DNA of 64,000 nucleotides from the NCBI RefSeq assembly GCF_041248615.1, contig NZ_CP158426.1. The stretch is one strand, 5' to 3'. Positions 1,337-53,601 of this stretch are shown here, one piece after another (position 1 is the first letter of the stretch; every line of letters starts with the position of its first letter). Position numbers and translations under genes: made by a program. This DNA is from Escherichia coli. Its GTDB lineage: Bacteria > Pseudomonadota > Gammaproteobacteria > Enterobacterales > Enterobacteriaceae. The notes beneath the pieces were generated by a model. The model saw nothing but the letters and a program-made list of their open reading frames with translations. It ran no database searches and was not told where the DNA came from.

Positions 1337-1424
1337 GGTGAGGTGTCCGAGTGGCTGAAGGAGCACGCCTGGAAAGTGTGTATACGGCAACGTATCGGGG
1401 GTTCGAATCCCCCCCTCACCGCCA
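1337..1424 (+). tRNA. serW: tRNA-Ser (GGA anticodon)
   Basis: 88-nt sequence GGTGAGGTGTCCGAGTGGCTGAAGGAGCACGCCTGGAAAGTGTGTATACGGCAACGTATCGGGGGTTCGAATCCCCCCCTCACCGCCA with long variable arm and CCA end; sits between infA and clpA as in K-12. Confidence 0.9.
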
Positions 1425-40270: not shown

Positions 40271-41956
40271 GTGAATATAAACGTCGCCGAATTGTTAAAT
40301 GGGAATTACATTCTGTTATTATTTGTGGTCCTCGCGCTTGGGCTATGTCTCGGGAAATTACGACTTGGTTCGATCCAACTGGGTAATTCCATTGGCGTTT
40401 TAGTCGTATCGCTGTTATTAGGCCAACAACATTTCAGCATTAACACCGACGCGCTTAATCTTGGCTTTATGCTGTTTATTTTCTGCGTCGGGGTCGAAGC
40501 CGGACCGAACTTTTTTTCCATTTTTTTTCGCGATGGGAAAAATTACCTAATGTTAGCACTGGTGATGGTTGGCAGTGCGCTGGCCATCGCCTTAGGGTTA
40601 GGTAAGCTGTTTGGCTGGGATATTGGCCTGACGGCCGGTATGTTAGCAGGCTCTATGACGTCAACACCGGTTCTGGTCGGTGCTGGCGATACACTGCGTC
40701 ATTCCGGCATGGAAAGCAGGCAGCTCTCACTGGCACTGGATAATCTGAGCCTCGGGTATGCCTTAACCTATTTAATCGGTCTGGTGAGTTTGATTGTTGG
40801 TGCGCGTTACTTGCCGAAATTGCAGCATCAGGACTTACAGACCAGCGCCCAGCAAATCGCCCGCGAACGTGGCCTGGACACAGATGCCAACCGTAAGGTT
40901 TATTTGCCGGTGATCCGCGCCTACCGCGTCGGCCCGGAGCTGGTAGCCTGGACCGACGGCAAAAATCTGCGTGAACTGGGTATTTATCGACAAACCGGCT
41001 GCTACATTGAACGTATTCGGCGTAACGGGATTCTGGCAAATCCAGACGGTGATGCCGTGCTACAAATGGGCGATGAAATAGCGTTGGTAGGCTACCCCGA
41101 CGCCCACGCCCGACTCGATCCCAGTTTCCGTAATGGCAAAGAAGTTTTCGATCGTGACCTTCTCGACATGCGTATCGTCACTGAAGAAGTGGTCGTTAAA
41201 AACCATAACGCTGTTGGCAAACGCCTGGCACAACTGAAGTTGACCGATCACGGTTGCTTCCTTAACCGCGTCATACGTAGCCAGATTGAGATGCCGATTG
41301 ATGACAACGTCGTGCTTAACAAAGGTGACGTTTTACAAGTCAGCGGCGATGCCCGCCGCGTAAAAACCATCGCCGATCGCATCGGCTTTATCTCGATTCA
41401 CAGCCAGGTCACTGACTTGCTGGCATTCTGCGCCTTCTTTGTTATTGGGCTGATGATCGGGATGATCACCTTCCAGTTCAGCACATTCAGTTTCGGCATG
41501 GGGAACGCTGCCGGGTTGTTATTCGCCGGAATTATGCTGGGCTTTATGCGTGCTAACCACCCGACCTTCGGTTACATTCCGCAGGGTGCATTAAGCATGG
41601 TGAAGGAGTTCGGCTTGATGGTGTTTATGGCAGGCGTTGGTCTGAGCGCTGGTAGCGGTATTAATAACGGCCTGGGCGCGATTGGCGGTCAGATGTTGAT
41701 TGCCGGATTGATTGTCAGTCTGGTGCCAGTGGTTATCTGCTTCTTGTTCGGTGCTTATGTATTGCGAATGAACCGCGCACTGTTGTTCGGCGCAATGATG
41801 GGCGCACGCACCTGCGCGCCGGCAATGGAGATCATCAGTGATACAGCTCGCAGTAACATCCCGGCGCTGGGCTATGCGGGCACCTACGCAATCGCCAACG
41901 TCCTGCTGACGCTGGCAGGGACAATCATCGTCATGGTATGGCCAGGATTAGGATAA
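40271..41956 (+). CDS. ybjL: Putative AAE-family transporter YbjL (two TrkA-C domains)
   Basis: 561-aa [39 protein letters not shown]... Confidence 0.93.
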
Positions 41957-41999
41957 AACTGAAGTTGCCCTGAAAATGAAATTTTTTTGCACAACCGCA

Positions 42000-42027
42000 G
42001 AACTTTTCCGCAGGGCATCAGTCTTAA
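42000..42027 (+). promoter_or_regulatory. Candidate sigma-E promoter of rybB
   Basis: GAACTT (-35-like) about 16 bp upstream of TCTTAA (-10-like), ending ~6 bp before the sRNA 5' end. Confidence 0.5.
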
Positions 42028-42032
42028 TTAGT

Positions 42033-42111
42033 GCCACTGCTTTTCTTTGATGTCCCCATTTTGTGGAGCCCATCAACCCCGCCATTTCGGTTCAAGGTTG
42101 GTGGGTTTTTT
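42033..42111 (+). ncRNA. rybB: RybB small RNA (sigma-E-dependent)
   Basis: GCCACTGCTTTTCTTTGATGTCCCCATTTTGTGGAGCCCATCAACCCCGCCATTTCGGTTCAAGGTTGGTGGGTTTTTT matches recalled RybB nearly base for base; lies downstream of ybjL as in K-12. Confidence 0.8.
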
Positions 42112-42191
42112 GTTGCCTGAAATTTATGCCTTTTAAAATCATGATATTAGAAGCACTGTTTTTTAACGATGGCGACAAAATGGCGGCAGCG

Positions 42192-42407
42192 TCAAAGAGA
42201 GAGCGCCACCTGTCCTGATTTCATTGGATGCGGCTGAACCGGATTTGACTCTTTTGGCGTTGCAATCGAACGAACAAAAGTTTCATGGGTAACAAAAGTA
42301 TGGCTGCAGTTAATGTTCTGGCACTGGTTGTAACGCTCTTTGGTCAATGAAGATACCTGAAAACTGCTGCGAGTATGGGCGGCACTTCCACACAGTGGGC
42401 AAATCAT
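42192..42407 (-). CDS. ogr: Ogr-type zinc-finger late transcription activator
   Basis: ~71 aa with CPLC...CQNINC zinc-finger spacing, similar to recalled P2 Ogr; start codon uncertain (ORF runs to 42443). Confidence 0.8.
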   Translation of the reverse strand: MICPLCGSAAHTRSSFQVSSLTKERYNQCQNINCSHTFVTHETFVRSIATPKESNPVQPHPMKSGQVALSL

Positions 42408-42500
42408 CATTTTTCGAGTTCTCCCCATTTTTGCTAAATTCACAATAATGATACCGCATTATTCCATTTTGCAAACTTAAAAGTTCTCCATTGCGAAGAA

Positions 42501-43601
42501 TCATTCCATTTCGAAATCATCAATCCTCACTTCAAGCTCCAGACTGGTCGTAAAACCGTTATCCGGGCTGACGGTATGTGTCAGAGTCGTAATGGTCCAT
42601 TCCGCATCATCTATCGGCTGTTTAAAACCACTGACTTTCACTGGCATTTCCGTGTAGAGATCTGCCCGACCTTCCGCCAGTTGTAGCGAGAATGACGCAA
42701 CGCCGCGTTGCAGGCGTTCCCACTGCATTTTCGCTGCCCGTTCAGCGTTGCTCCGGTTGGCATAAGTGCGATTAAGTACCAGCACGTTTTCATCTGTACC
42801 CACCAGGTAATCGCCCTGCTTCGCTTCCGGCTCTTTCTTCTGCTTCTTAGTTCTGCGCTTACGCTTCACCGTTGTGCTTTCTTTCTTCGCGGGTTCGCGG
42901 GTATGCAACCAGCTGGCAATTACGCCCGTGTAGGCTCCGCGATCTGCCAGGGTAAATCGGTGACTGTCGCCGTCCTTGCGTGTGATAGTGATCACTGGCA
43001 GTGGTTTACCAGTGGCGCTTTTGCCCAGCCCCTGCCGGATGAATAACAGATTGCCATTTTTCACCGACGCGATGGCACCGTACTGTCGCGCCAGCCGCAT
43101 CAGAAAACTGCCGTCACTCTCATTAGTCTGGTCTATATGCTCCACGGGCTTATCCGACAGGTCTTTACCCAGTGCCATCTTCAGCTTGTGCCGCGCGGCT
43201 ATTTCCTTCACCACCTCCCCGATGGTGGCGTTATGCCACGATTTTTCACGGCGGGTATTCAGGGTTTCCCGAAAATCAGCACTTCGCGCCCGGATAGTCA
43301 GGCGGTCCGGTGCGCCAGTGTGTTCAATCTCGTCCACCGTGAATGCCCCTTTCGGGAAAAGCTGCTGCCCCTTCCAGCCCAGCGCCAGCGTAATGACCGC
43401 ACCACGGCGCGGCAGCGCTATTTTTCCATCGGCGTCGTCCAGCTCCAGATCAAGCTGGTCCGCTTCAAAGCCCCGGTTATCCGTCAGCGTCAGCCTCATC
43501 AGGCGGTTATCCAGCACAGTGGTGATATCCCTGCCCTCAATACTGATGTTGAATGCGGGAGTTTTGTTGCCTTTGCTAAGCAGTTCAGAGCTGAAATTCA
43601 C
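42501..43601 (-). CDS. P2 gpD-like tail protein
   Basis: 366-aa ORF at the position of P2 gene D (after U, before ogr). Confidence 0.8.
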   Translation of the reverse strand: MNFSSELLSKGNKTPAFNISIEGRDITTVLDNRLMRLTLTDNRGFEADQLDLELDDADGKIALPRRGAVITLALGWKGQQLFPKGAFTVDEIEHTGAPDRLTIRARSADFRETLNTRREKSWHNATIGEVVKEIAARHKLKMALGKDLSDKPVEHIDQTNESDGSFLMRLARQYGAIASVKNGNLLFIRQGLGKSATGKPLPVITITRKDGDSHRFTLADRGAYTGVIASWLHTREPAKKESTTVKRKRRTKKQKKEPEAKQGDYLVGTDENVLVLNRTYANRSNAERAAKMQWERLQRGVASFSLQLAEGRADLYTEMPVKVSGFKQPIDDAEWTITTLTHTVSPDNGFTTSLELEVRIDDFEME

Positions 43602-44083
43602 GACAGCAGCCCTCCCACCGTTTTACTGATATCACTTAAGGCAGATGTTGCCGTGTCCTGCAGATTATTCAGTTGCGTACTGAGATCACCGAACATATCG
43701 GACAGGGATTCATCCACCCGTTTGAGCGACAGGGTGAACTCAATCCGGCGCGGCATACCGTCGCGGAAAAACTCCGTTTTAGTCAGATTCAGTCCCTCAA
43801 TCACATACATGCCGTAAATCGTGCCGCTGCCTTCAATCAGGGGCCATGCTTTTCCCTGTTCTGCCATCTGCTCCAGAGCCAGCAACGACAGCCTGCCGCC
43901 CGTTATCTCCGGCATAAGAACACCAGAAAGCGTCAGCATGTCGTTGTCCGGTCCCAGAAACTGCGTGGACGGACGACGGTTTACCCGGCTGTTTGCCGCA
44001 TGTCGCCAGCTGCGTTGATACTGCAGTTCCTGATACGGAACGGTGCGCAGCATAAACACGTACAATCCCAGCACCATCATCAT
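43598..44083 (-). CDS. P2 gpU-like tail protein
   Basis: 161-aa ORF between T and D, overlapping both by 4 bp. Confidence 0.8.
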   Translation of the reverse strand: MMMVLGLYVFMLRTVPYQELQYQRSWRHAANSRVNRRPSTQFLGPDNDMLTLSGVLMPEITGGRLSLLALEQMAEQGKAWPLIEGSGTIYGMYVIEGLNLTKTEFFRDGMPRRIEFTLSLKRVDESLSDMFGDLSTQLNNLQDTATSALSDISKTVGGLLS

Positions 44084-47000
44084 GCGTCGTATCCCCCCTG
44101 ATCGCTGTAGTTACTCCTGGCTTTTGCCTTCAGCCTGCGTTCACGTTCATCAAGCTGGCGGGCCACCTCCCGCGCAATATCCTGCGCACTTTGTCCTGGC
44201 TGCGTCTGAATGATGATCTGCGTCGGTGCCTCAATCCGTTGAACGGGCGGCACAGTGGCTGCACGACTCACCATCGCTTCGCCGCCTTTCGCGGGAAGTG
44301 CCAAAGGATGTAACGGTGGAAGCTCTGCTGGCGCGGCAGCAACACCCATCATTCCGGCGACAACGGCAGCCAGTGCAGCTGTATTTCTCCGGCTGGTCAC
44401 GTTTGCCGGGCCGTTAACAATTTCCGGCCCGTTTTCACCAACGATGCCAAACTGCCCGCGCGGGATATAGCCGCCGCTGTCATACATCCCCGCAAAGCCA
44501 TATCCCCATGACGGAAAACCACCCGATGGCATCATCACTTTACCGTCTGCATTCACCGTCGCAGGTTGCTGACGCGTCACGCTTTCCGGCAGTTTCGCCT
44601 TTGCAGCCTCTTTACTGACAATACCGAGTTTCTCCAGCAACCAGGAAACGCCGGATTTCAGGGAGTCCAACGGATGCATGACCATATTCAGCCCTTCCGC
44701 CAGTGCCTCCCCGAATCGTCGCCCCATTGCCGCTGCGCTCTGCAGTTCGGCAGAGGTCGACTTAACAGGCGTCAGCAGATCAGTAAACCAGCCCCACAAC
44801 GCCTGTACTTTGTCGCCAATCCACTGGAACACGGGCTTAAGCGGTTCGAATGCAGCACTGATGGGACCTGCCGCCGCTTTGAATCCTTCCACCACGCCAC
44901 CGAGAAATGCGGTGATGGGTTGCCAGTATTTCCAGACAACCAGCGCCACGCCCGCCAGTGCAGTAAACACAAGACCTATCGGACTGAGCAGAGCACCTAA
45001 CAGACCAGATACGGCATACAGGGCAACGCGCAGCATCGCCAGCGGACCGGATGCCAGCACACGCAGCACCGCGCCTGCGGCAGCCAGTCCACCGCGTAGT
45101 GCTGCCAGTGGATTCATAAACATCACAGCAACCGCACGTAAACCGGATAATCCAGACCGCAAAAGTGCAACCGGCGCACCTGCTACAGTTTTCATGACAT
45201 TTCCCGTCAGTGATGCCGTGCGGCGCAAAGATGACAACGGTGCAGTAAGTAAACCCGCAGCGTTGCCCGATGAAGCAAGCCCGCGTCGCAGCAGTACCAG
45301 TGGTGCGCCAGCCAGCCAGGACAACGCGCTGCTGGTTCGAGTTAATGCTGCCGTAACGGAAGGTAACGTTTTGATACCCAGCACAGAGAATCCCAGACGG
45401 ATCACTGCCAGCGGCCCCAGCACTGCAGCCAGCGCCACCGCTAAGGTGCCGAGGCCGACGGTAACCGCAGCCACAACAGCCGATGCTTTCATCAGTGTGC
45501 CTGTCAGTTCTGGGTTAGCTTCCACCCAGCGACGCAACGCCCCCGTGACGCTTTTCACCGTGTACAGAATATCCATCAGCGGCTGGCGCAGCGTTTCGCC
45601 CAGGCTGCTGAAGGTGTTCTGCGCTCCGGTTTTGACCAGCAACCACTGCGCAGAAAGTGAATCCTTGTTAATGTCGGATTCTTTCTGCATGGAGCCGAGC
45701 GCATCATTGCCCGCTGTCAGTTTTAACTGACGCTGCAGTTCCGGCAGGTTGTTTGCCAGTTTCGCCGCGTCATCGCCAAACTCTTTACCAAACAACATAG
45801 TCATGGCAGACAGGCGCTTGTCCTGCGGCAGCGCGTTCACCTTCTCCAGCACGCGCTGGATGGTTCCCATCGCATCCTTCGTCATCTGCTTTTCAATCAC
45901 TTCAGGATTGAGTTTCAGCAGATTCATCCCTTCAAAGAAACTCTTGCTTTGCATGGTGGCAATGGACAATTCACGCACCATCGCGTTTGCTGCACTGGCT
46001 GCAACCTCCGGCGCAGCACCCAGAGTCAGGAAGGTGGAACCCAGCGCCGCCGCTTTACGATAATCCAGACGGTCAGCCACACCGCCCAGACGTTGCATAA
46101 CATCGATGATGTCTGCCCCTTTCGACATTGCGTTATCATCCAGATAGTTCAGCGCATCACCGAGCTGTTCAATATTGCGGGTAGGTATTTTGTAGAGCTG
46201 GGCGATTTTTCCCAGACTTTCTGACAGTTCATCCGCTGGCAGCTCAAAGGCTGTTGCCGCCTTTGCTGCCGTGCTGGCGAAGGCCAGCAGGTCACGTTTC
46301 TGGTCTTCCCAGCTGTCGTCAGGGTTTGCGACGTTCATGCGCGCACCACCTTCAACCAGTGCGGCGAAGTCCACAGCACCGTTTTCCATCGGCAACTGTT
46401 CGCTGGCAGCCTTGATGGCATCCTGCATTTCATAAAAACGTGCAGTACGGTTTCCATTATCGTCACGCAGACCATTGACCTGCTTTGCCACACCTTTCAT
46501 GGCATCTTCCATGCTGGTATAGCTTTTTACTGCCGCCATCACTGGCGTCCCCATTGCCAGCCCTGCAGCCGTGGTAGTGGCTCCAGCTCCTGCAATACGA
46601 TCGCGCACCTCCAGCGAACGGGCATAACTGGCACGCGCTGCATTCATCCTGCGCTGAGCTTCCCCCAGTCGCTTCAGCCGCGCCTCCTGTTTCGACAGTT
46701 CCTGGTTATAACGTGATGTTTCACGGGCTAAACGGGCAGTTGCTCCCGCATCATCTTTCGCAGAAATTCCCGCCCGGTACAGTTCTGCACGCACAAGCGC
46801 CGTTTGCTTCTGCAAATATTTTTGTTGTTCTTCCAGGCGTTGGACTGCCAGCGTTTGCCGACCTAAAGCCACAAGGTGCCGTTGTGATGGTTGTTCCATC
46901 GCCTCCAGCTCAGAGCTAAGCAAATTAGCCTTCTGTCTGGCATAGTTCAGCCTGTCGCCTAACTTCTTGTTATCGGCCTGCAGCTTGCGAAATTTTTCCA

Positions 47001-47157
47001 GGCTGTTACCCGCCTGATTGAGTTGCTTTAATGCGTCACGGGAGTTTCTGATTGCGCCAGCCAGCTCTTTCGAACTGGCCTGTGCAGCACGGAATGGGCG
47101 GGTGAGTTTGTCAACCGCATTAAGAATGACCTGCAGCCGCAGGTTATTATTACTCAT
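44080..47157 (-). CDS. Tail tape-measure protein (P2 gpT-like)
   Basis: 1025-aa Ala/Gly-rich coiled-coil protein downstream of the E/E' pair. Confidence 0.85.
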   Translation of the reverse strand: MSNNNLRLQVILNAVDKLTRPFRAAQASSKELAGAIRNSRDALKQLNQAGNSLEKFRKLQADNKKLGDRLNYARQKANLLSSELEAMEQPSQRHLVALGRQTLAVQRLEEQQKYLQKQTALVRAELYRAGISAKDDAGATARLARETSRYNQELSKQEARLKRLGEAQRRMNAARASYARSLEVRDRIAGAGATTTAAGLAMGTPVMAAVKSYTSMEDAMKGVAKQVNGLRDDNGNRTARFYEMQDAIKAASEQLPMENGAVDFAALVEGGARMNVANPDDSWEDQKRDLLAFASTAAKAATAFELPADELSESLGKIAQLYKIPTRNIEQLGDALNYLDDNAMSKGADIIDVMQRLGGVADRLDYRKAAALGSTFLTLGAAPEVAASAANAMVRELSIATMQSKSFFEGMNLLKLNPEVIEKQMTKDAMGTIQRVLEKVNALPQDKRLSAMTMLFGKEFGDDAAKLANNLPELQRQLKLTAGNDALGSMQKESDINKDSLSAQWLLVKTGAQNTFSSLGETLRQPLMDILYTVKSVTGALRRWVEANPELTGTLMKASAVVAAVTVGLGTLAVALAAVLGPLAVIRLGFSVLGIKTLPSVTAALTRTSSALSWLAGAPLVLLRRGLASSGNAAGLLTAPLSSLRRTASLTGNVMKTVAGAPVALLRSGLSGLRAVAVMFMNPLAALRGGLAAAGAVLRVLASGPLAMLRVALYAVSGLLGALLSPIGLVFTALAGVALVVWKYWQPITAFLGGVVEGFKAAAGPISAAFEPLKPVFQWIGDKVQALWGWFTDLLTPVKSTSAELQSAAAMGRRFGEALAEGLNMVMHPLDSLKSGVSWLLEKLGIVSKEAAKAKLPESVTRQQPATVNADGKVMMPSGGFPSWGYGFAGMYDSGGYIPRGQFGIVGENGPEIVNGPANVTSRRNTAALAAVVAGMMGVAAAPAELPPLHPLALPAKGGEAMVSRAATVPPVQRIEAPTQIIIQTQPGQSAQDIAREVARQLDERERRLKAKARSNYSDQGGYDA

Positions 47158-47586
47158 CGTTGGCCCCGCTTCTCTGAATCGCTTTATACCGCCATTCCAG
47201 CACTTCGGTCAGCGGCATAACGTCAGTAACGGATGGCGGCCAGTGAAAAATGGTGGCGATATCTGCCACCAGAGCGTCAACCGTCAGGCTGTCGGTAAAC
47301 CGGCAAGCACCGACTTCTTCAACAAAAAAGTGACAACCTCAACCGACATAGCTGTGAGATCTGCCGGGTCCATCTCTGCGATTTCCTGTGCAGTCAGTGC
47401 CGGACTGGAAATGCGGGGGATCACGGTCATCATCGCGTTCACATCCATATCCATAATGGCCTGCAGGCGTGTACCGCGCAGCGCACCGGACTGCGGTTTA
47501 CGCAACACAATTTCGGTAATTTCTGTTTTACCGCGCATGATGGGGGTATCCAGTTGAATGGTCTTTTCAGTCTGCTTATCGCTCAT
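47150..47586 (-). CDS. gpE' extended tail chaperone made by -1 programmed frameshift
   Basis: Slippery TTTTTTG (minus strand, 47324-47330); -1 frame stays open ~52 codons (FFVEEVGACRFTDSLTVDALVADIATIFHWPPSVTDVMPLTEVLEWRYKAIQRSGANDE) and stops at 47150-47152, overlapping the T start. Confidence 0.7.
47284..47586 (-). CDS. Tail assembly chaperone (P2 gpE-like)
   Basis: 100-aa ORF ending just after a TTTTTTG slippery heptamer. Confidence 0.8.
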   Translation of the reverse strand: MSDKQTEKTIQLDTPIMRGKTEITEIVLRKPQSGALRGTRLQAIMDMDVNAMMTVIPRISSPALTAQEIAEMDPADLTAMSVEVVTFLLKKSVLAGLPTA

Positions 47587-47640
47587 TTTATTGTCCTGTA
47601 AATTGGGTTCTGGCGCGGTATCCCGCGCCGTTCAGATACA

Positions 47641-48156
47641 TCAGAGGCCGAGGGCGTTGCGGTGCGCTTCCATCAGGTCCACACCGTCCACAATTTCCAC
47701 CATGTTGATAAGGTCCACTTCATAGAGCACCTCACCATTGATAGTCAGCTTCGCGTAGCTGTTGGTACTGGTCACTTTGGTGGTGTTGCTTTCGCCCGTC
47801 TTCCACTCACCGGAATCCACTTCTTTGTGACGTCCGCGCACCACAAGCTCCACGGCCTGCACTTCCCCGGTATCGTCACGCTGGATAGAGCCGGTAAAGC
47901 GCAGCTGGATGCCATCCACCGTGGCTTTGCCCATCTGCTTAAACAGCAGCAGTTCAGTACCACCAATGGAAAATTCTGTATCCAGTGCACTGTCATCCAG
48001 TCCCAGATCCACATCCACCGCCCCCGGCATTCCGCCGCCGCGATACTTCTCATATTTGCGGGTGAATTTCGGCAGCGTCAGCGACTCAACGATCCCCTGC
48101 CAGTTATTCCCGTCGTTAAACAGGTTCAGGTGTTTTAATTTACGTGGTAAAGCCAT
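47641..48156 (-). CDS. Tail tube protein (P2 gpFII-like)
   Basis: 171-aa ORF directly downstream of the sheath gene. Confidence 0.85.
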   Translation of the reverse strand: MALPRKLKHLNLFNDGNNWQGIVESLTLPKFTRKYEKYRGGGMPGAVDVDLGLDDSALDTEFSIGGTELLLFKQMGKATVDGIQLRFTGSIQRDDTGEVQAVELVVRGRHKEVDSGEWKTGESNTTKVTSTNSYAKLTINGEVLYEVDLINMVEIVDGVDLMEAHRNALGL

Positions 48157-49480: not shown

Positions 49481-50047
49481 TCAGGGGGATTCATTGCTCT
49501 TATTTGCCGGAAATTTTCTATAAATGGTAGAAACGCCTACATCAAAAATCAGTGCAATACGCTGTCTTGATTCTCCGGCCTCGAGTAAACGTCCAATCTG
49601 TGCCCACTGTTCAGTGGTCAACTTAGGACGGCGTCCACCTACTCTGCCTTTAGCACGAGCTGCAGCCAGCCCTGCCCTGGTACGTTCAACTATCAGTTCG
49701 CGTTCCATTTCAGCCAGGGCACCCATGACATGAAAAAAGAAACGGCCCATTGGGGTACTGGTATCAATACTGTCAGTCAGGCTTCGGAAATTCACACCAC
49801 GCTGGCGCAACTCTTCTATCAGCGTAACAAGATGCCGCATACTGCGCCCCAACCTGTCCAGCTTCCAGACAACCAGCGTGTCTCCTGCCGATAGTGTCCT
49901 GAGCAGCTTTTTCAGCCCCGGTCTGTCGGACTTGGTGCCACTGATTTTATCCTCAAAAATCCGCTCACATCCCGCACAGTTCAGTGCATTGCGTTGCAAA
50001 TCGGTGTTCTGGTCATTTGTTGACACGCGTACATAGCCAATAAGCAT
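49481..50047 (-). CDS. Pin/Gin/Hin-family serine DNA invertase
   Basis: MLIGYVRVSTNDQNTDLQRNALNCAGCE...VWKLDRLGRSMRHL...; catalytic Ser in VRVSTNDQ; close to recalled e14 Pin and Mu Gin. Confidence 0.9.
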   Translation of the reverse strand: MLIGYVRVSTNDQNTDLQRNALNCAGCERIFEDKISGTKSDRPGLKKLLRTLSAGDTLVVWKLDRLGRSMRHLVTLIEELRQRGVNFRSLTDSIDTSTPMGRFFFHVMGALAEMERELIVERTRAGLAAARAKGRVGGRRPKLTTEQWAQIGRLLEAGESRQRIALIFDVGVSTIYRKFPANKSNESP

Positions 50048-50102
50048 GATCAATCCCCTGAATAAAAACCAGGGATGATGCCAGTTAGCTGTTACCTCTG
50101 CA

Positions 50103-50128
50103 TTTTCTTAAACGTTGGTTTGGGAGAA
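50103..50128. other. Invertase crossover site (pix/gix-like), invertase-proximal
   Basis: TTTTCTTAAACG-TT-GGTTTGGGAGAA, two 12-bp half-sites around a 2-bp core, ~56 bp upstream of the invertase start; the GGTTTGGGAGAA half is identical to the site in H in inverted orientation. Confidence 0.7.
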
Positions 50129-50572
50129 GGTGCTCCAGCTATTGGTGTTCCGTTCTTCTGGCCGTCCGCTGCAATGCCAGATACCGTAATCGAAAGCTGG
50201 TCCGGCATGGTGTTTTTGAAGTTCAACGGCGCGAAATTCTCTGCCACTGATTACCCTGTGCTGGCGAAAGTGTTTCCTTCGCTGGTATTACCTGAAGCCC
50301 GCGGTGATTTCATTCGTATCTGGGATGACGGGCGAGGGGCGGACAGTGGACGAGCATTATTAAGCTGGCAGGCAGCAACATCTTTATCGCAATTTGGAGG
50401 TAATTATCCAGAGGGGTCCGGCCATTCGATTGCTAATCACGATGGAATATCAGCACACGAGCCGGGTTTCTCTCGATACCATTACACCAGTAATTCAGTG
50501 GGTGATGGTGTGAATTTTATAGCCGTCAGACCACGTAACATCGCATTTAACTTTCTGGTGAGGGCTAAATAA
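50129..50572 (+). CDS. Start-less alternative tail-fibre C-terminal segment (Sv'), expressed only after inversion
   Basis: Frame continues in phase from the crossover site; encodes GAPAIGVPFFWPS...LPEARGDFIRIWDDGRGADSGRALLSWQ..., a typical tail-fibre receptor-binding C-terminus. Confidence 0.7.
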   Translation, partial: GAPAIGVPFFWPSAAMPDTVIESWSGMVFLKFNGAKFSATDYPVLAKVFPSLVLPEARGDFIRIWDDGRGADSGRALLSWQAATSLSQFGGNYPEGSGHSIANHDGISAHEPGFSRYHYTSNSVGDGVNFIAVRPRNIAFNFLVRAK

Positions 50573-51165
50573 TGAAACCTGTTTTTGATAAAAATGGGCT
50601 GGCTACAGTGCCGGGCGATATGCGTTGTTTTTATTATGATGCTGAAACATCTGAGTATACGGGCTGGTCTGATGAATATATTAATACTGGCGTAAGTATG
50701 CCCGCCTGTTCCACTGGAATTGACCCTGGCGAAAACATTCCGGGAAGAGTGGCAGTATTTACAGGTAAGGGATGGAGCCATGAAGAAGACCATCGCAATG
50801 AGACTGTTTACTCAATCGAAAATGGTGCTGCTGTTACAGTGGATTATATCGGTGCCATCAAAAACGGTTATGTCACGCTTTCACCGTTAACGCCATATGA
50901 TAAATGGGATGGTAAGAAATGGGTGACAGATACTGAGGCACAACACGGTGCCGCAGTAGAAGCGGCAGAAGCACAGCGCCAGTCACTGATTGATGCAGCA
51001 ATGGCTTCCATTAGTCTGATTCAGCTGAAATTACAGGCCGGACGTAAACTGACGCAGGCAGAAACAACCAGACTTAACGCTGTGCTGGATTACATTGACG
51101 CGGTGACGGCAACAGATACCAGCACCGCGCCGGATGTCATCTGGCCTGAACTGCCGGAGGCGTAG
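50572..51165 (+). CDS. Tail fibre assembly protein, cognate to Sv'
   Basis: 197-aa ORF MKPVFDKNG... with Tfa-type C-terminus (AVLDYIDAVTATDTSTAPDVIWPELP). Confidence 0.8.
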   Translation: MKPVFDKNGLATVPGDMRCFYYDAETSEYTGWSDEYINTGVSMPACSTGIDPGENIPGRVAVFTGKGWSHEEDHRNETVYSIENGAAVTVDYIGAIKNGYVTLSPLTPYDKWDGKKWVTDTEAQHGAAVEAAEAQRQSLIDAAMASISLIQLKLQAGRKLTQAETTRLNAVLDYIDAVTATDTSTAPDVIWPELPEA

Positions 51166-51577
51166 GCCATTCAATATCTGGAGCACTGGAGGTATCAACC
51201 AGTTCCAGTGCGTCCAGATAATCCAGCCACAAATTATATTGCGCCAGTTCCTCACCTTTCAGACGACCAATAGCCGCTTTACCAGGCCATTGTTTACTGT
51301 TCATATAATCGTTGGCCTGATTAATCAATTGCTGCTTCTCCAATTCGGCTGCAGCAATTTGTTCCTCATGTGTTGGTGGTGGAATTTCAGACCATGCAGG
51401 AAAACCATTTTCTCCAGCGATACGGATTTTTCCTTTCGGCGGTAATCCGGAAAACTCAATATACACTTGCTCATCAACTTCAACAGCATCATCTGGCCAT
51501 GAGTCAGCTTGAGTGTAATCCTCTTTCATCTCCAGCGGATAGAAAGAGTTTGTAGTCGCGGAATATATGTAATTCAT
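51137..51577 (-). CDS. Tail fibre assembly protein, cognate to the currently expressed fibre tip
   Basis: 146-aa ORF with Tfa-type C-terminus (LWLDYLDALELVDTSSAPDIEWPTPP); converges on and overlaps the other tfa by 29 bp. Confidence 0.8.
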   Translation of the reverse strand: MNYIYSATTNSFYPLEMKEDYTQADSWPDDAVEVDEQVYIEFSGLPPKGKIRIAGENGFPAWSEIPPPTHEEQIAAAELEKQQLINQANDYMNSKQWPGKAAIGRLKGEELAQYNLWLDYLDALELVDTSSAPDIEWPTPPAVQAR

Positions 51578-51598
51578 TTTTCACTCCATATAGCTAAA

Positions 51599-52999
51599 TT
51601 AACAGCCTAACGCTAAAAATGAAGCGCCGAGGCCAGGAGTACTGGCTCTGGATATAAATTTAACCGGGTCGGGACTAAAACCTGCACAGGCAATATAACC
51701 AACAGCCCCGCTATCTGGTGTGTAGTCTTGTGAGACCAAAACACGCAGACATCTGTTTGGAAATGCAATCGGGAAATGGGTTACTACATCCTGTGCAATG
51801 CCTGGTGCGCCGATTGAGCCCCACTGAAGAATAAAACCTGATGGTAATTTTTGATATCCAGTACCTGAAACAGAAAGCGTGAAGCTACCCATATCAGGTA
51901 TCTGATTCGCCCCTGTCCCTACATTCCTTTTAGCCGCTTCTCCCAAACCAAGGTATGTGAGAAGACCAGCTACATCCTTTCCACTCAAATTGGTAAGCGT
52001 ATTGTCCAGCGGTTGTTTACCTGACAGCGCATTAAGCATTGTCGTGGCAAAGTTCGGATCATTCCCCAGCGCCGCTGCCAGTTCGTTCAGCGTATCCAGT
52101 GCCGCAGGTGCAGAACCCACCATTGCTGCAATCGCCGATTTCACAAAAGCCGTGGTGGCAATCTGTGTATTGTTGACCGACTGTGCCGCAGTAGGTGCTG
52201 TTGGCGTTCCGGTAAGTGCCGGACTCGACAGTGGCGCTTTTAGTTCCAGCGCATTGTTAATGGTGGTGCTGAATTTGGGGTCATTGTTTATGGCCGCGGC
52301 TATTTCTTTCAGCGTGTCCAGCGTGGCTGGCGCACCATTAATAAGAGCCGTCAGTGCCGCCTGAACAAACGCGGTGGTCGCAAGTTGCGTGGTATTATTC
52401 CCCGCCGCTGGCGTTGGTGCTTTGGGGGTTCCGGTAAACGTCGGGCTGGCTTTTGGCGCGTACTGTGAATGCGGGTCCAGTGCGGCAAGATGTTTTGCCA
52501 TCAGATCATCCGCGTACACCTTCAGCTCCAGTGCCTTGTCATCCACATACTTGCGGGTTGCCAGCACTACAGCAGGGTCGATTTTCAGGGTGATATTGTC
52601 CGTGCTGCTGGTAATCAGCACCATGCGCACGGTCTGAGTGCGCCCGCTACCTTCAGCCAGTTGCGGCTTATAGCTTTCCGGGCAGTTGCCCACGGCAATC
52701 AATGCCCCTGACTCATCAAACAAGCCCACTTCACGTATCCACCAACCGCCCTCGTTTTCAGGGATCACCTGTTCGGCAATAATCTGACTGCTGTTCTGCG
52801 GGTCGATATAGAGCATATTCAGCGCAGCCCGGCGTTTCTCATTTACCAGTGCAGTCTGCTTTGAGTCTGGCGTTGGCAATGCTCCGCCGCCATCGCCCAC
52901 CGCCATATGGGTAATTTTTAGCGGCACACCGAGCGCGGCGGCGCTGGCAAGTTTCGCCGCGCCAATATCCGTCAGCAGGGTATAAAATTTTGTGCTCAT
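51599..52999 (-). CDS. Tail fibre protein (P2 gpH-like), constant N-terminus fused in current orientation to variable tip Sv
   Basis: 466-aa ORF; crossover site lies in-frame at codons ~346-354 (YLGLGE). Confidence 0.85.
51938..51963. other. Invertase crossover site (pix/gix-like) inside the tail fibre gene
   Basis: TTCTCCCAAACC-AA-GGTATGTGAGAA on + strand; shares 14/14 TTCTCCCAAACCAA with the reverse complement of the site at 50103-50128. Confidence 0.7.
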
Positions 53000-53601
53000 G
53001 GATTCACTCTCATTGTGTCAATAACATGGACCGCCCCGCCTTCATGCGCGGTGCCGCCGGAAATAATTGTTTCGTTGATATACGGATAGATCGTGATTTC
53101 TTCGCCAAGATAGCTGGCGGCTCCCACCCAATGCGGGCCGCTGGTCTGCAGGTTGATGGACATGCCGATCATGTGACGGCTACATGGTTTGGCATCGCTT
53201 ATCAGTCGCTCAAGTTCCAGATAGGTATCTTCAGTGATGCCCTGGTCCTGCACGCCGATATCCAGACGAAACGTGCCCGGTGCCTCTCCGGTCTGCCACC
53301 ACTCAATAATGCGGATCAGAAAGCCGAACGGCTCCACCACCCGCCGCACGGCACTGGTGGTCCCTTTATGCTGATGAACATAAAAAGCATCCTTCACCAC
53401 CTGGCGCTTGACGCTTTCTGTCCAGCCCTCGTCCCAGCGATCCACAGAGAACGCCCAGGCGAGATAAGGCAGGAAACTGATCGGACAGGTTGCCGGGTTC
53501 CACAAGTCACGCAGCGGCACCTGCAGATCAGAAATCCCGCTGCAGGTTTGCGCCAGTCGGCGCTCCAGTAGTGTTGAACCCGGTGGCAGCAGACTATTCA
53601 T
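52996..53601 (-). CDS. Baseplate assembly protein (P2 gpI-like)
   Basis: 201-aa ORF in P2 order between J and H. Confidence 0.8.

What the first reader, a model, noticed from the sequence alone, without database searches (positions are those of the whole stretch)
47150..47586. Conserved -1 programmed frameshift (E/E') ahead of the tape-measure gene
Gene E ends just after a TTTTTTG slippery heptamer (minus strand, 47324-47330). The -1 frame from that point stays open for ~52 codons and stops at 47150-47152, overlapping the T start codon at 47157. This is the arrangement of P2 E and E+E' and of the lambda G/GT tail chaperone. It means the 47157-47284 gap is coding, not intergenic.
Basis: partly seen in the sequence, partly recalled or inferred. 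Interest (0 to 1): 0.3.

Follow-up and report, generated by a model that had tools for sequence, protein, structure and literature searches.

The report
P2-type tail chaperone frameshift (E/E+E')
This is the well-known programmed -1 ribosomal frameshift that lets a P2-like prophage of E. coli make two tail-assembly chaperones (E and the longer E+E') from one start codon; it is real and strongly conserved, but it is ordinary and already described for this phage family.

Summary
The -1 frame is closed by a TGA four codons upstream. From the heptamer it stays open for 57 codons (not ~52) to TAA 47152..47150, overlapping the ATG of tape-measure gene T (47157).

The 145-aa fusion matches Pfam Phage_TAC_7 (E part) and Phage_P2_GpE (E' part). 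Its neighbours are sheath FI, tube FII, T, U and D.

The heptamer, its phase and a 53-58 codon -1 frame are kept in all 98 relatives examined. These include L-413C and Carl1, where the -1 frameshift is annotated, as well as phiCTX, RSA1 and a Zymomonas element. Variation in the E-to-T "gap" concentrates at the third codon position of the -1 frame.

The separate 39-aa "GpE family" ORF in RefSeq, starting at GTG 47269, has no ribosome-binding site. Its start codon is missing in several relatives.

I found no convincing downstream stimulatory structure. Weak leads remain: an upstream GAGGU and a 6-bp hairpin 8 nt downstream.

The feature is already known and of low interest, apart from an annotation gap in RefSeq.

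The parts
47284..47586 (-). Gene E: tail assembly chaperone, 100 aa, the product of standard (0-frame) translation
   Evidence: ORF. Pfam PF10109 Phage_TAC_7, E=2.4e-18, residues 9-88. phrog_103 'tail protein', E=3.6e-42. RefSeq names it 'phage tail assembly protein'.
47323..47329 (-). Slippery heptamer T_TTT_TTG, in phase X_XXY_YYZ relative to E
   Evidence: A T6 heptamer (TTTTTTG/A/C/T) sits in the same phase and position in 12 annotated phages, 80 IMG/VR loci and 6 distant relatives. It is the same heptamer reported for P2 (PMC3091744).
47150..47323 (-). E' : the -1 frame extension, 57 sense codons plus TAA (47152..47150)
   Evidence: Translation. Pfam PF06528 Phage_P2_GpE, 65.5 bits against a cutoff of 23. 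phrog_1756 covers fusion residues 85-145, across the junction. Excess third-position variation in the -1 frame.
47150..47586 (-). E+E' fusion coding region: 47586..47323 joined to 47323..47150 with base 47323 read twice; 145 aa
   Evidence: tblastn finds the two-piece (two-frame) match in 386 of 421 phage records. The AlphaFold model of the fusion has pLDDT 87.7 and pTM 0.78, with one helix (residues 74-92) running through the junction.
47339..47341 (-). TGA that closes the -1 frame four codons upstream of the heptamer
47267..47269 (-). GTG used by RefSeq/GenBank pipelines as the start of a separate 39-aa 'GpE family phage tail protein'; judged an ORF-calling artefact
   Evidence: Annotation. 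The anti-SD duplex upstream is only -3.0 kcal/mol, against a background mean of -2.8 and -7 to -11.5 for FI, FII, T, U and D. The equivalent codon is GAA in Arsenophonus, Ala in RSA1 and Trp in VP58.5.
44080..47157 (-). Gene T: tape measure protein, 1025 aa; its ATG overlaps the E' stop (ATGAGTAA)
   Evidence: Pfam PF10145. TIGR01760 tape_meas_TP901, E=3e-92. The junction ATGAGTRA is kept in nearly all relatives.
47641..48156 (-). Gene FII: tail tube protein, immediately upstream of E
   Evidence: Pfam PF04985, E=8.8e-60.
47291..47314 (-). Candidate local hairpin GUCGGU-12 nt-ACCGAC, 8 nt after the heptamer; unproven as a stimulator
   Evidence: Energy -7.6 kcal/mol. 82% of cells pair against 79% in shuffles, with two pairs changed on both sides. 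It is not chosen by the MFE fold or by RNAalifold and is lost in P2-type relatives.
47336..47340 (-). Shine-Dalgarno-like GAGGU, 6-7 nt upstream of the heptamer; an unproven lead
   Evidence: The anti-SD duplex is -6.8 kcal/mol here and -8 to -10.8 in P2-like L-413C, RE-2010, RSA1 and phiCTX. It is at or below -6.8 in 9 of 14 lineages, against 14% of background windows at or below -6. It also encodes a conserved Glu-Val, and another Glu codon nearby is equally invariant.

Best explanation
The window carries the FI-FII-E-E'-T-U-D tail operon of a P2-like (Peduoviridae; Elveevirus/Felsduovirus-type) prophage of E. coli.

Shown from sequence: the anatomy of the site, the homology of both parts of the fusion, and the conservation of the arrangement.

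Inferred mechanism:
- Ribosomes translating E reach ACU_UUU_UUG.
- With tRNA-Phe on UUU in the P site and tRNA-Leu on UUG in the A site, a minority slip one base 5' and re-pair on UUU_UUU.
- They then read GUU as the next codon and continue for 57 codons in the -1 frame.

Most ribosomes therefore make the 100-aa E, and a minority make the 145-aa E+E' (junction ...VVTFL|VEEVG...).

Inferred from lambda G/GT and from the P2 work as cited in papers read here: both products are tail assembly chaperones. The shared E part coats the tape-measure protein T. The E' domain of the rare fusion recruits tube protein FII, so that the tube polymerises around T. The fixed E : E+E' ratio set by frameshift efficiency is what matters, and neither protein is expected in the finished virion.
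For: - In-phase T_TTT_TTG, a 57-codon open -1 frame, and a stop overlapping the T ATG.
- The fusion hits PF10109 (residues 9-88) and PF06528 (residues 107-143, 65.5 bits), and also phrog_103 and phrog_1756; the latter spans the junction.
- The gene neighbourhood sheath/tube/E/T/U/D is confirmed by Pfam.
- The heptamer, its phase and a 53-58 codon -1 frame are kept in 12 annotated phages from at least 6 genera, in 80 of 80 IMG/VR loci, and in phiCTX, RSA1, Smp131, VP58.5, a Zymomonas element and Carl1.
- The 0-frame tail after the heptamer varies from 6 to 22 codons, while the -1 tail stays constant in length.
- L-413C, Smp131 and Carl1 records annotate the joined E+E' CDS.
- G93, L101 and L106 are invariant in the first, 7-sequence alignment (not in the wider 13-sequence one). 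They lie in the -1 frame upstream of the supposed GTG start.
- The gap shows a coding signature in the -1 frame.
- Literature: P2 frameshifts at TTTTTTG to give a 91-aa E and a 142-aa E+E' (PMC3091744; PMC3931495). The G-T type frameshift is widely conserved, and its efficiency in P2 is 2-3 fold that of lambda (PMC5009743).
Against: - There is no expression data for this prophage; the fusion product itself is inferred.
- No significant stimulatory RNA structure was found. The 93 nt downstream fold with z=-1.3, and the RNAalifold consensus is -4.6 kcal/mol with no covariation term.
- In E. coli reporter work, U-rich heptamers such as U_UUU_UUA and U_UUU_UUU are less slippery than A_AAA_AAG (PMC5009743). 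Efficiency here therefore cannot be read from the sequence.
- RefSeq and most GenBank relatives annotate E' as a separate small ORF.
- NCBIfam has no model matching E or the fusion.
- The prophage's tail-fibre region is annotated as partly pseudogenised, so the phage may not be fully functional.
Confidence: 0.93

Rival explanations
1. E' is an independent 39-aa protein initiated at GTG 47269, as the RefSeq and GenBank pipelines annotate it, and no frameshift is involved.
For: It is annotated this way in the identical E. coli record and in most relatives. Pfam PF06528 and phrog_6416 are built on this 37-39 aa unit. A GTG or ATG sits at this position in many relatives.
Against: - The anti-SD pairing upstream is at background level: -3.0 kcal/mol, against -7 to -11.5 for neighbouring genes.
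- The codon is not a start codon in Arsenophonus (GAA), RSA1 (Ala) or VP58.5 (Trp).
- The -1 frame is conserved at the protein level for the 18 codons between the heptamer and the GTG, including G93, L101 and L106, which are invariant in the 7-sequence alignment.
- phrog_1756 aligns across fusion residues 85-145.
- The -1 frame opens exactly at the conserved heptamer.
- P2 E' is reported to lack a ribosome-binding site and to be made as an extension of E (PMC3931495).
Confidence: 0.03
2. The same E+E' protein is produced by transcriptional slippage. RNA polymerase adds one extra U on the T6 run, and ribosomes then translate the edited mRNA normally.
For: The site is a homopolymeric run, and in Smp131 and Zymomonas it is T7. 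A +1 U transcript would put E' in frame. Transcriptional slippage is documented in bacteria (PMC5009743).
Against: - Documented productive bacterial slippage uses runs of about 9 A or T; six T is short.
- The run keeps the ribosomal X_XXY_YYZ phase in all 98 relatives despite deep divergence and variable E lengths. Polymerase slippage would not require this.
- The 3' base is mostly G.
- The P2 event is described in the literature as translational.
Confidence: 0.04
3. The heptamer and the open -1 frame are a chance coincidence, or a decayed remnant, with no product.
For: 6.7% of in-ORF positions have a -1 frame this long, and TTTTTTG occurs 10 times on this strand. Part of the prophage's tail-fibre region is annotated as pseudogenes.
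Against: The Pfam hit for the -1 peptide has E=2.9e-18. The arrangement is conserved in 98 of 98 relatives. The variation pattern is that of purifying selection in the -1 frame. About 999 of 5426 complete E. coli genomes carry this junction at 80% identity or more.
Confidence: 0.005

Closest known systems
Bacteriophage P2 E / E+E' (FETUD tail operon; Christie et al. 2002, known here through PMC3091744 and PMC3931495) and its annotated copy in Yersinia phage L-413C
   Same: Same gene order, FI-FII-E-E'-T-U-D. Same T_TTT_TTG heptamer in the same phase. The -1 extension is 57 codons in both. The E' stop overlaps the T ATG in both. E' lacks its own ribosome-binding site. Product sizes are similar: 100/145 aa here against 91/142 aa in P2.
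   Different: Only 46-47% protein identity to the P2-type fusion. E continues 12 codons past the heptamer here, against 6 in P2/L-413C. This clade has a 6-bp hairpin 8 nt downstream and a terminator-like hairpin inside E' that the P2 type lacks. T is 1025 aa here.
Closest relatives: Klebsiella phage 4LV2017 (Elveevirus), and Salmonella phages SopEPhi and RE-2010 (Felsduovirus, Fels-2 type)
   Same: 84-98% nucleotide identity across E/E'/T. The heptamer and -1 frame geometry are identical. E' is already recognised in those records: 'tail protein E'' in RE-2010 and 'similar to gpE+E` of bacteriophage P2' in SopEPhi.
   Different: Those records list E' as a separate 39-aa CDS rather than as a joined frameshift product. 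The window uses TAA rather than TGA as the E' stop.
Lambda G/GT and the general 'conserved frameshift in tail assembly chaperone genes' of long-tailed phages (Levin 1993; Xu, Hendrix and Duda 2004, 2013, 2014, as summarised in PMC5009743)
   Different: Sequence similarity to lambda G/T was not tested here, and P2-related and lambda tail proteins are reported to share none (PMC3931495). The slippery sequence differs. The P2 type is reported to frameshift 2-3 fold more efficiently. This is a contractile-tail phage, not a siphovirus.
E. coli dnaX -1 frameshift (A_AAA_AAG with a 5' SD-like element and a 3' stem-loop)
   Same: A homopolymer-type heptamer ending in G. An upstream anti-SD-complementary element (GAGGU) and a hairpin a few nucleotides downstream are possible here.
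   Different: Here the putative elements are weak (-6.8 and -7.6 kcal/mol) and unproven. The SD-like element is 6-7 nt upstream, which from my own recollection is closer than the roughly 10-nt spacing in dnaX. The outcome is a C-terminal extension rather than early termination.

Membership tests
P2-type E/E+E' tail assembly chaperone frameshift (Peduoviridae) | An E homologue located between tail tube gene FII and tape-measure gene T | tested here: met
   PF10109 for E, PF04985 for FII, and PF10145/TIGR01760 for T, all adjacent on the minus strand.
P2-type E/E+E' tail assembly chaperone frameshift (Peduoviridae) | A T_TTT_TTG (T6G) slippery heptamer in phase X_XXY_YYZ near the 3' end of E | tested here: met
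   47329..47323, with phase 2 relative to the E ATG, 12 codons before the E stop. It matches the P2 site as described in PMC3091744.
P2-type E/E+E' tail assembly chaperone frameshift (Peduoviridae) | A -1 frame ORF homologous to P2 E' that overlaps the end of E and the start of T | tested here: met
   57 codons. PF06528 at 65.5 bits. 55% amino-acid identity in the -1 frame to the L-413C E' tail. The stop at 47152..47150 overlaps ATG 47157.
P2-type E/E+E' tail assembly chaperone frameshift (Peduoviridae) | E' has no translation initiation signal of its own | tested here: met
   The anti-SD duplex is -3.0 kcal/mol before GTG 47269, against -7 to -11.5 for FI, FII, T, U and D. The start codon is not conserved in Arsenophonus, RSA1 or VP58.5.
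P2-type E/E+E' tail assembly chaperone frameshift (Peduoviridae) | The fusion protein is actually made, at roughly 10% of E, and E' is essential for tail assembly | not testable with these tools
   This needs protein analysis of induced lysates and genetics. The only support here is the purifying-selection signature in the -1 frame.
Lambda G/GT-type tail assembly chaperone pair (general class; Xu et al. 2004) | Two overlapping ORFs between the major tail gene and the tape-measure gene, linked by a slippery sequence, giving a short and an extended product | tested here: met
Lambda G/GT-type tail assembly chaperone pair (general class; Xu et al. 2004) | A shared tail-assembly-chaperone fold | tested here: inconclusive
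Lambda G/GT-type tail assembly chaperone pair (general class; Xu et al. 2004) | The short part binds the tape measure, the extension binds the tube protein, and both are absent from virions | not testable with these tools
   This is biochemical. It is inferred by analogy from PMC5009743.
dnaX/IS-type stimulated -1 frameshift cassette | A functional 3' stem-loop or pseudoknot 5-9 nt after the heptamer | tested here: inconclusive
   A 6-bp hairpin lies 8 nt downstream (-7.6 kcal/mol), with marginal covariation (15 of 500 shuffles reach its pairing level). The region as a whole is not unusually structured (z=-1.3; alifold -4.6). There is no Rfam hit. The literature reports no such structure in P2 or the Burkholderia relatives.

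The most novel reading that the evidence does not exclude
The most novel reading not excluded concerns the Fels-2/Elveevirus clade. Here the frameshift, or the expression of T that follows it, may be tuned by cis elements not described for P2. The candidates are (a) an upstream anti-SD-complementary GAGGU(G) 6-7 nt before the heptamer, which is enriched across lineages that use TTTTTTG; (b) a 6-bp hairpin 8 nt downstream; and (c) a stable terminator-like hairpin with a U-tract inside E' (47271..47251), which could attenuate transcription into T-U-D.
Probability: 0.15. Interest if true: 0.3.

Novelty: already known. Interest (0 to 1): 0.1.

Why it matters
Biologically this adds nothing new. It is one more copy of a textbook recoding event, present in roughly a fifth of complete E. 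coli genomes.

Its practical value lies in annotation. RefSeq/PGAP and most GenBank phage records split the product into a 'phage tail assembly protein' and a spurious 39-aa 'GpE family phage tail protein', with no ribosomal-slippage join. Pfam PF06528 and phrog_6416 are modelled on that truncated unit.

Anyone doing proteomics, engineering P2-like tails or tailocins, or training gene callers should use the 145-aa join(47586..47323, 47323..47150) product.

Tried and rejected
- Downstream stimulatory structure. The MFE fold of the 93 nt after the heptamer is not significant (z=-1.3). Per-sequence MFE folds differ between relatives. The RNAalifold consensus is trivial. A hand-named 6-bp hairpin gave only marginal support. 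I therefore rejected it as an established stimulator and kept it as a lead.
- Rfam scan of 46900-47800 at E<=1: only two noise hits.
- NCBIfam: no model for E or the fusion.
- PDB sequence search: nothing at E<=1.
- Upstream SD-like element. It is enriched across lineages. But GAG invariance within the close clade is not distinctive, since a GAA Glu codon and a CAG Gln codon nearby are equally invariant. This is not enough to claim function.
- Translational coupling of T to E' termination. T has its own moderate SD (-7.0 kcal/mol), so coupling is not required.
- Independent initiation of E', transcriptional slippage, and chance: considered and rejected (see rival explanations).
- The primary P2 paper (Christie et al. 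2002; PMC135442 / doi 10.1128/JB.184.23.6522-6531.2002) is not held in the library. Its content is cited only through papers that describe it.

Full report
OBSERVATION

Reading the minus strand and translating it exactly gives the following picture.

- Gene E runs from ATG 47586 to TGA 47286..47284 and encodes 100 aa.
- Its codons 86-88 are ACT TTT TTG. The heptamer T_TTT_TTG therefore occupies 47329..47323, in the canonical X_XXY_YYZ phase.
- The -1 frame carries a TGA at 47341..47339, four codons upstream of the heptamer.
- That stop lies inside the string ATGAGTAA, whose ATG (47157) starts the 1025-aa tape-measure gene T.
- A -1 shift after decoding TTG would give a 145-aa protein with the junction ...SVEVVTFL|VEEVGACRF...

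IS IT MORE THAN CHANCE?

Geometry alone is only mildly unusual. In this window, 6.7% of in-ORF positions have a -1 frame open for 57 or more codons, and TTTTTTG occurs 10 times on this strand. The content of the -1 frame is decisive.

- The fusion hits Pfam PF10109 (Phage_TAC_7, 'tail assembly chaperone proteins E, or 41 or 14') over residues 9-88. It hits PF06528 (Phage_P2_GpE) over residues 107-143 at 65.5 bits, against a cutoff of 23.
- In PHROGs it hits phrog_103 for the E part. It also hits phrog_1756, which aligns over residues 85-145 and so crosses the junction.
- The neighbours are the sheath FI, tube FII, T, U and D, all confirmed by Pfam/TIGRFAM.
- The window is identical to the chromosome of E. 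coli NRZ14408 (NZ_LT599825.1). The prophage sits next to ybjL, with ogr at its end.

COMPARATIVE EVIDENCE

Close and moderately distant relatives:
- blastn finds the E/E'/T junction in 113 phage records. The closest are Elveevirus (Klebsiella phage 4LV2017, 97%) and Felsduovirus (SopEPhi and RE-2010, 84-85%).
- I fetched 12 annotated relatives spanning at least six genera, plus an Arsenophonus plasmid-prophage. Every one has a T6 heptamer (TTTTTTG, once TTTTTTC) in the same phase at the same place, followed by 56-57 open -1 codons whose stop overlaps the T ATG.

Wider sampling:
- An IMG/VR scan found more than 589 relatives. In all 80 loci kept, the heptamer (78 TTTTTTG, 2 TTTTTTA) and a 57-58 codon -1 frame are present.
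- tblastn with the fusion finds a two-piece, two-frame match covering at least 80% of the query in 386 of 421 phage records. Hosts include Burkholderia, Ralstonia, Pseudomonas, Vibrio, Stenotrophomonas and Zymomonas.
- Six of these distant relatives were checked by hand: phiCTX, RSA1, Smp131, VP58.5, Zymomonas and Carl1. All keep an in-phase T6/T7 heptamer 8-22 codons before the E stop, followed by a 53-57 codon -1 frame.

Signs of selection:
- The 0-frame tail after the heptamer varies from 6 to 22 codons, while the -1 tail is nearly constant. This places selection on the -1 frame.
- Within the 'gap' between the E stop and the T start, variable columns fall 28/15/38 on -1-frame codon positions 1/2/3. 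Minimum changes are 32/20/62 (chi-square p=4e-6).
- Mean amino-acid identity is highest in that frame, and the other two frames contain stops.

MECHANISM

The best-supported reading is tandem -1 ribosomal slippage. With tRNA-Phe on UUU in the P site and tRNA-Leu on UUG in the A site, both re-pair one base 5' on UUU_UUU. The ribosome then continues with GUU.

- This is the mechanism reported for P2, where TTTTTTG yields a 91-aa E and a 142-aa E+E' (PMC3091744).
- The review PMC5009743 places it in the widely conserved lambda G-T class and states that efficiency in P2 and its relatives is 2-3 fold that of lambda.
- By analogy with lambda, the common E part binds the tape measure and the E' domain recruits the tube protein. 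The ratio of the two products is critical, and neither is in the mature virion. That part is inference.
- An AlphaFold model of the fusion, built from a 13-sequence alignment, is confident (pLDDT 87.7, pTM 0.78). It shows a beta-hairpin plus helices for E, a helical E', and one helix (residues 74-92) running through the junction.

RIVAL EXPLANATIONS

(i) Independent initiation of a 39-aa E' at GTG 47269. This is how RefSeq and most GenBank records annotate it. Against it:
- The upstream anti-SD pairing is at background level: -3.0 kcal/mol, against -7 to -11.5 for FI, FII, T, U and D.
- The codon is GAA in Arsenophonus, Ala in RSA1 and Trp in VP58.5.
- Residues that are invariant in the first, 7-sequence alignment (G93, L101, L106) lie in the -1 frame upstream of this codon.

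(ii) Transcriptional slippage on the T6 run would give the same protein. However, documented cases use runs of about nine, and the ribosomal phase of the run is kept in all 98 relatives.

(iii) Chance is excluded by the conservation data.

STIMULATORY ELEMENTS

- The 93 nt after the heptamer are not unusually structured (z=-1.3).
- MFE folds differ among relatives, the RNAalifold consensus is trivial, and Rfam has nothing.
- This agrees with the literature statement that P2 and its Burkholderia relatives lack such hairpins.
- A local 6-bp hairpin, GUCGGU-N12-ACCGAC, begins 8 nt after the heptamer (47314..47291, -7.6 kcal/mol). It shows one clean compensatory change (GUCGGC/GCCGAC in the Klebsiella phages). 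Overall support is marginal, and it is lost in the P2 type.
- Upstream, GAGGU (47340..47336) can pair with the anti-SD. Nine of 14 lineages have a duplex at or below -6.8 kcal/mol there, against 14% of background windows at or below -6. But it encodes a conserved Glu-Val, and its invariance within the close clade is not distinctive.
- Both elements are leads, not findings.

COMPARISON AND NOVELTY

This is a member of the P2 E/E+E' family on every sequence-testable criterion. It is one instance of the general lambda G/GT-type chaperone frameshift. It is already known. Close relatives carry the labels 'tail protein E'' and 'similar to gpE+E` of bacteriophage P2', and about 999 of 5426 complete E. 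coli genomes carry this junction.

The only useful residue is an annotation point. RefSeq lacks the ribosomal-slippage join and lists a spurious 39-aa ORF.

One correction to the proposed check: mass spectrometry should be done on induced lysates rather than on virions, because the chaperones are not expected in the particle.

Noticed in passing
window 47251-47271 (minus strand), with the U-tract to ~47241: There is a terminator-like hairpin inside the E' coding region: UGGUGGC-AGAUAUC-GCCACCA followed by UUUUUCAC. It folds at -12.2 kcal/mol with z=-2.3 (3 of 200 shuffles fold as well). It is 91% paired in 14 relatives, and one pair changes G-C to A-U in the P2/186-type phages. At 52 nt after the heptamer it is too far away to be a frameshift stimulator. 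It could be a by-product of the conserved V-A-D-I-A-T-I-F codons, or a partial attenuator ahead of T.
   Followed up: partly
window 47336-47340 (minus strand): An SD-like GAGGU lies 6-7 nt upstream of the slippery heptamer. Stronger versions (GAGGUGGU, AAGGUGGU) occur at the same place in RE-2010, L-413C, RSA1, Carl1 and phiCTX. It is absent in the four relatives whose heptamer ends in C or T, and also in Arsenophonus, whose heptamer ends in G.
   Followed up: partly
window 47150-47157 (minus strand) and the equivalent site in L001-L092: The overlap of the T start with the E' stop, ATGAGTRA, is nearly invariant: 78 of 80 IMG/VR loci and all 12 annotated relatives have it. This would allow termination-reinitiation coupling of T to ribosomes that have frameshifted. 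However, T also has its own moderate SD at -7.0 kcal/mol.
   Followed up: partly
window 49481-53000: This looks like an invertible tail-fibre segment. It has a Hin/Gin-type serine invertase (49481..50053, minus strand; PF00239 and HTH_7). It has imperfect inverted repeats at 50103-50134 and 51932-51963, 1797 nt apart. Tail-fibre-assembly genes lie in both orientations. RefSeq marks the tail-fibre gene and an 'integrase' fragment here as partial pseudogenes, which may simply reflect the orientation of the segment.
   Followed up: partly
window 47267-47269; Pfam PF06528 and phrog_6416: The public family models for 'GpE' (37-39 positions) begin exactly at the GTG/ATG that ORF callers pick. They therefore appear to be built on a truncated artefact of the real E+E' extension, which starts 18 codons earlier at the heptamer.
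   Followed up: yes
window 44080-44098 and 43598-43601 (minus strand): The T/U and U/D gene junctions overlap by ATGA/GTGA-type 4-nt overlaps. A G_GGG_GGA heptamer lies 3 codons before the T stop, and its long open -1 frame is simply gene U. This is an ordinary gene overlap, not a second frameshift.
   Followed up: no
window 1337-1424 and 40271-42410: Host context: tRNA-Ser(GGA) at 1337-1424, and hcp/hcr/poxB around 14-18 kb. The prophage end lies between ybjL (40271..41956) and the ogr/Delta-like gene (42192..42410). The prophage runs off the right end of the window.
   Followed up: no
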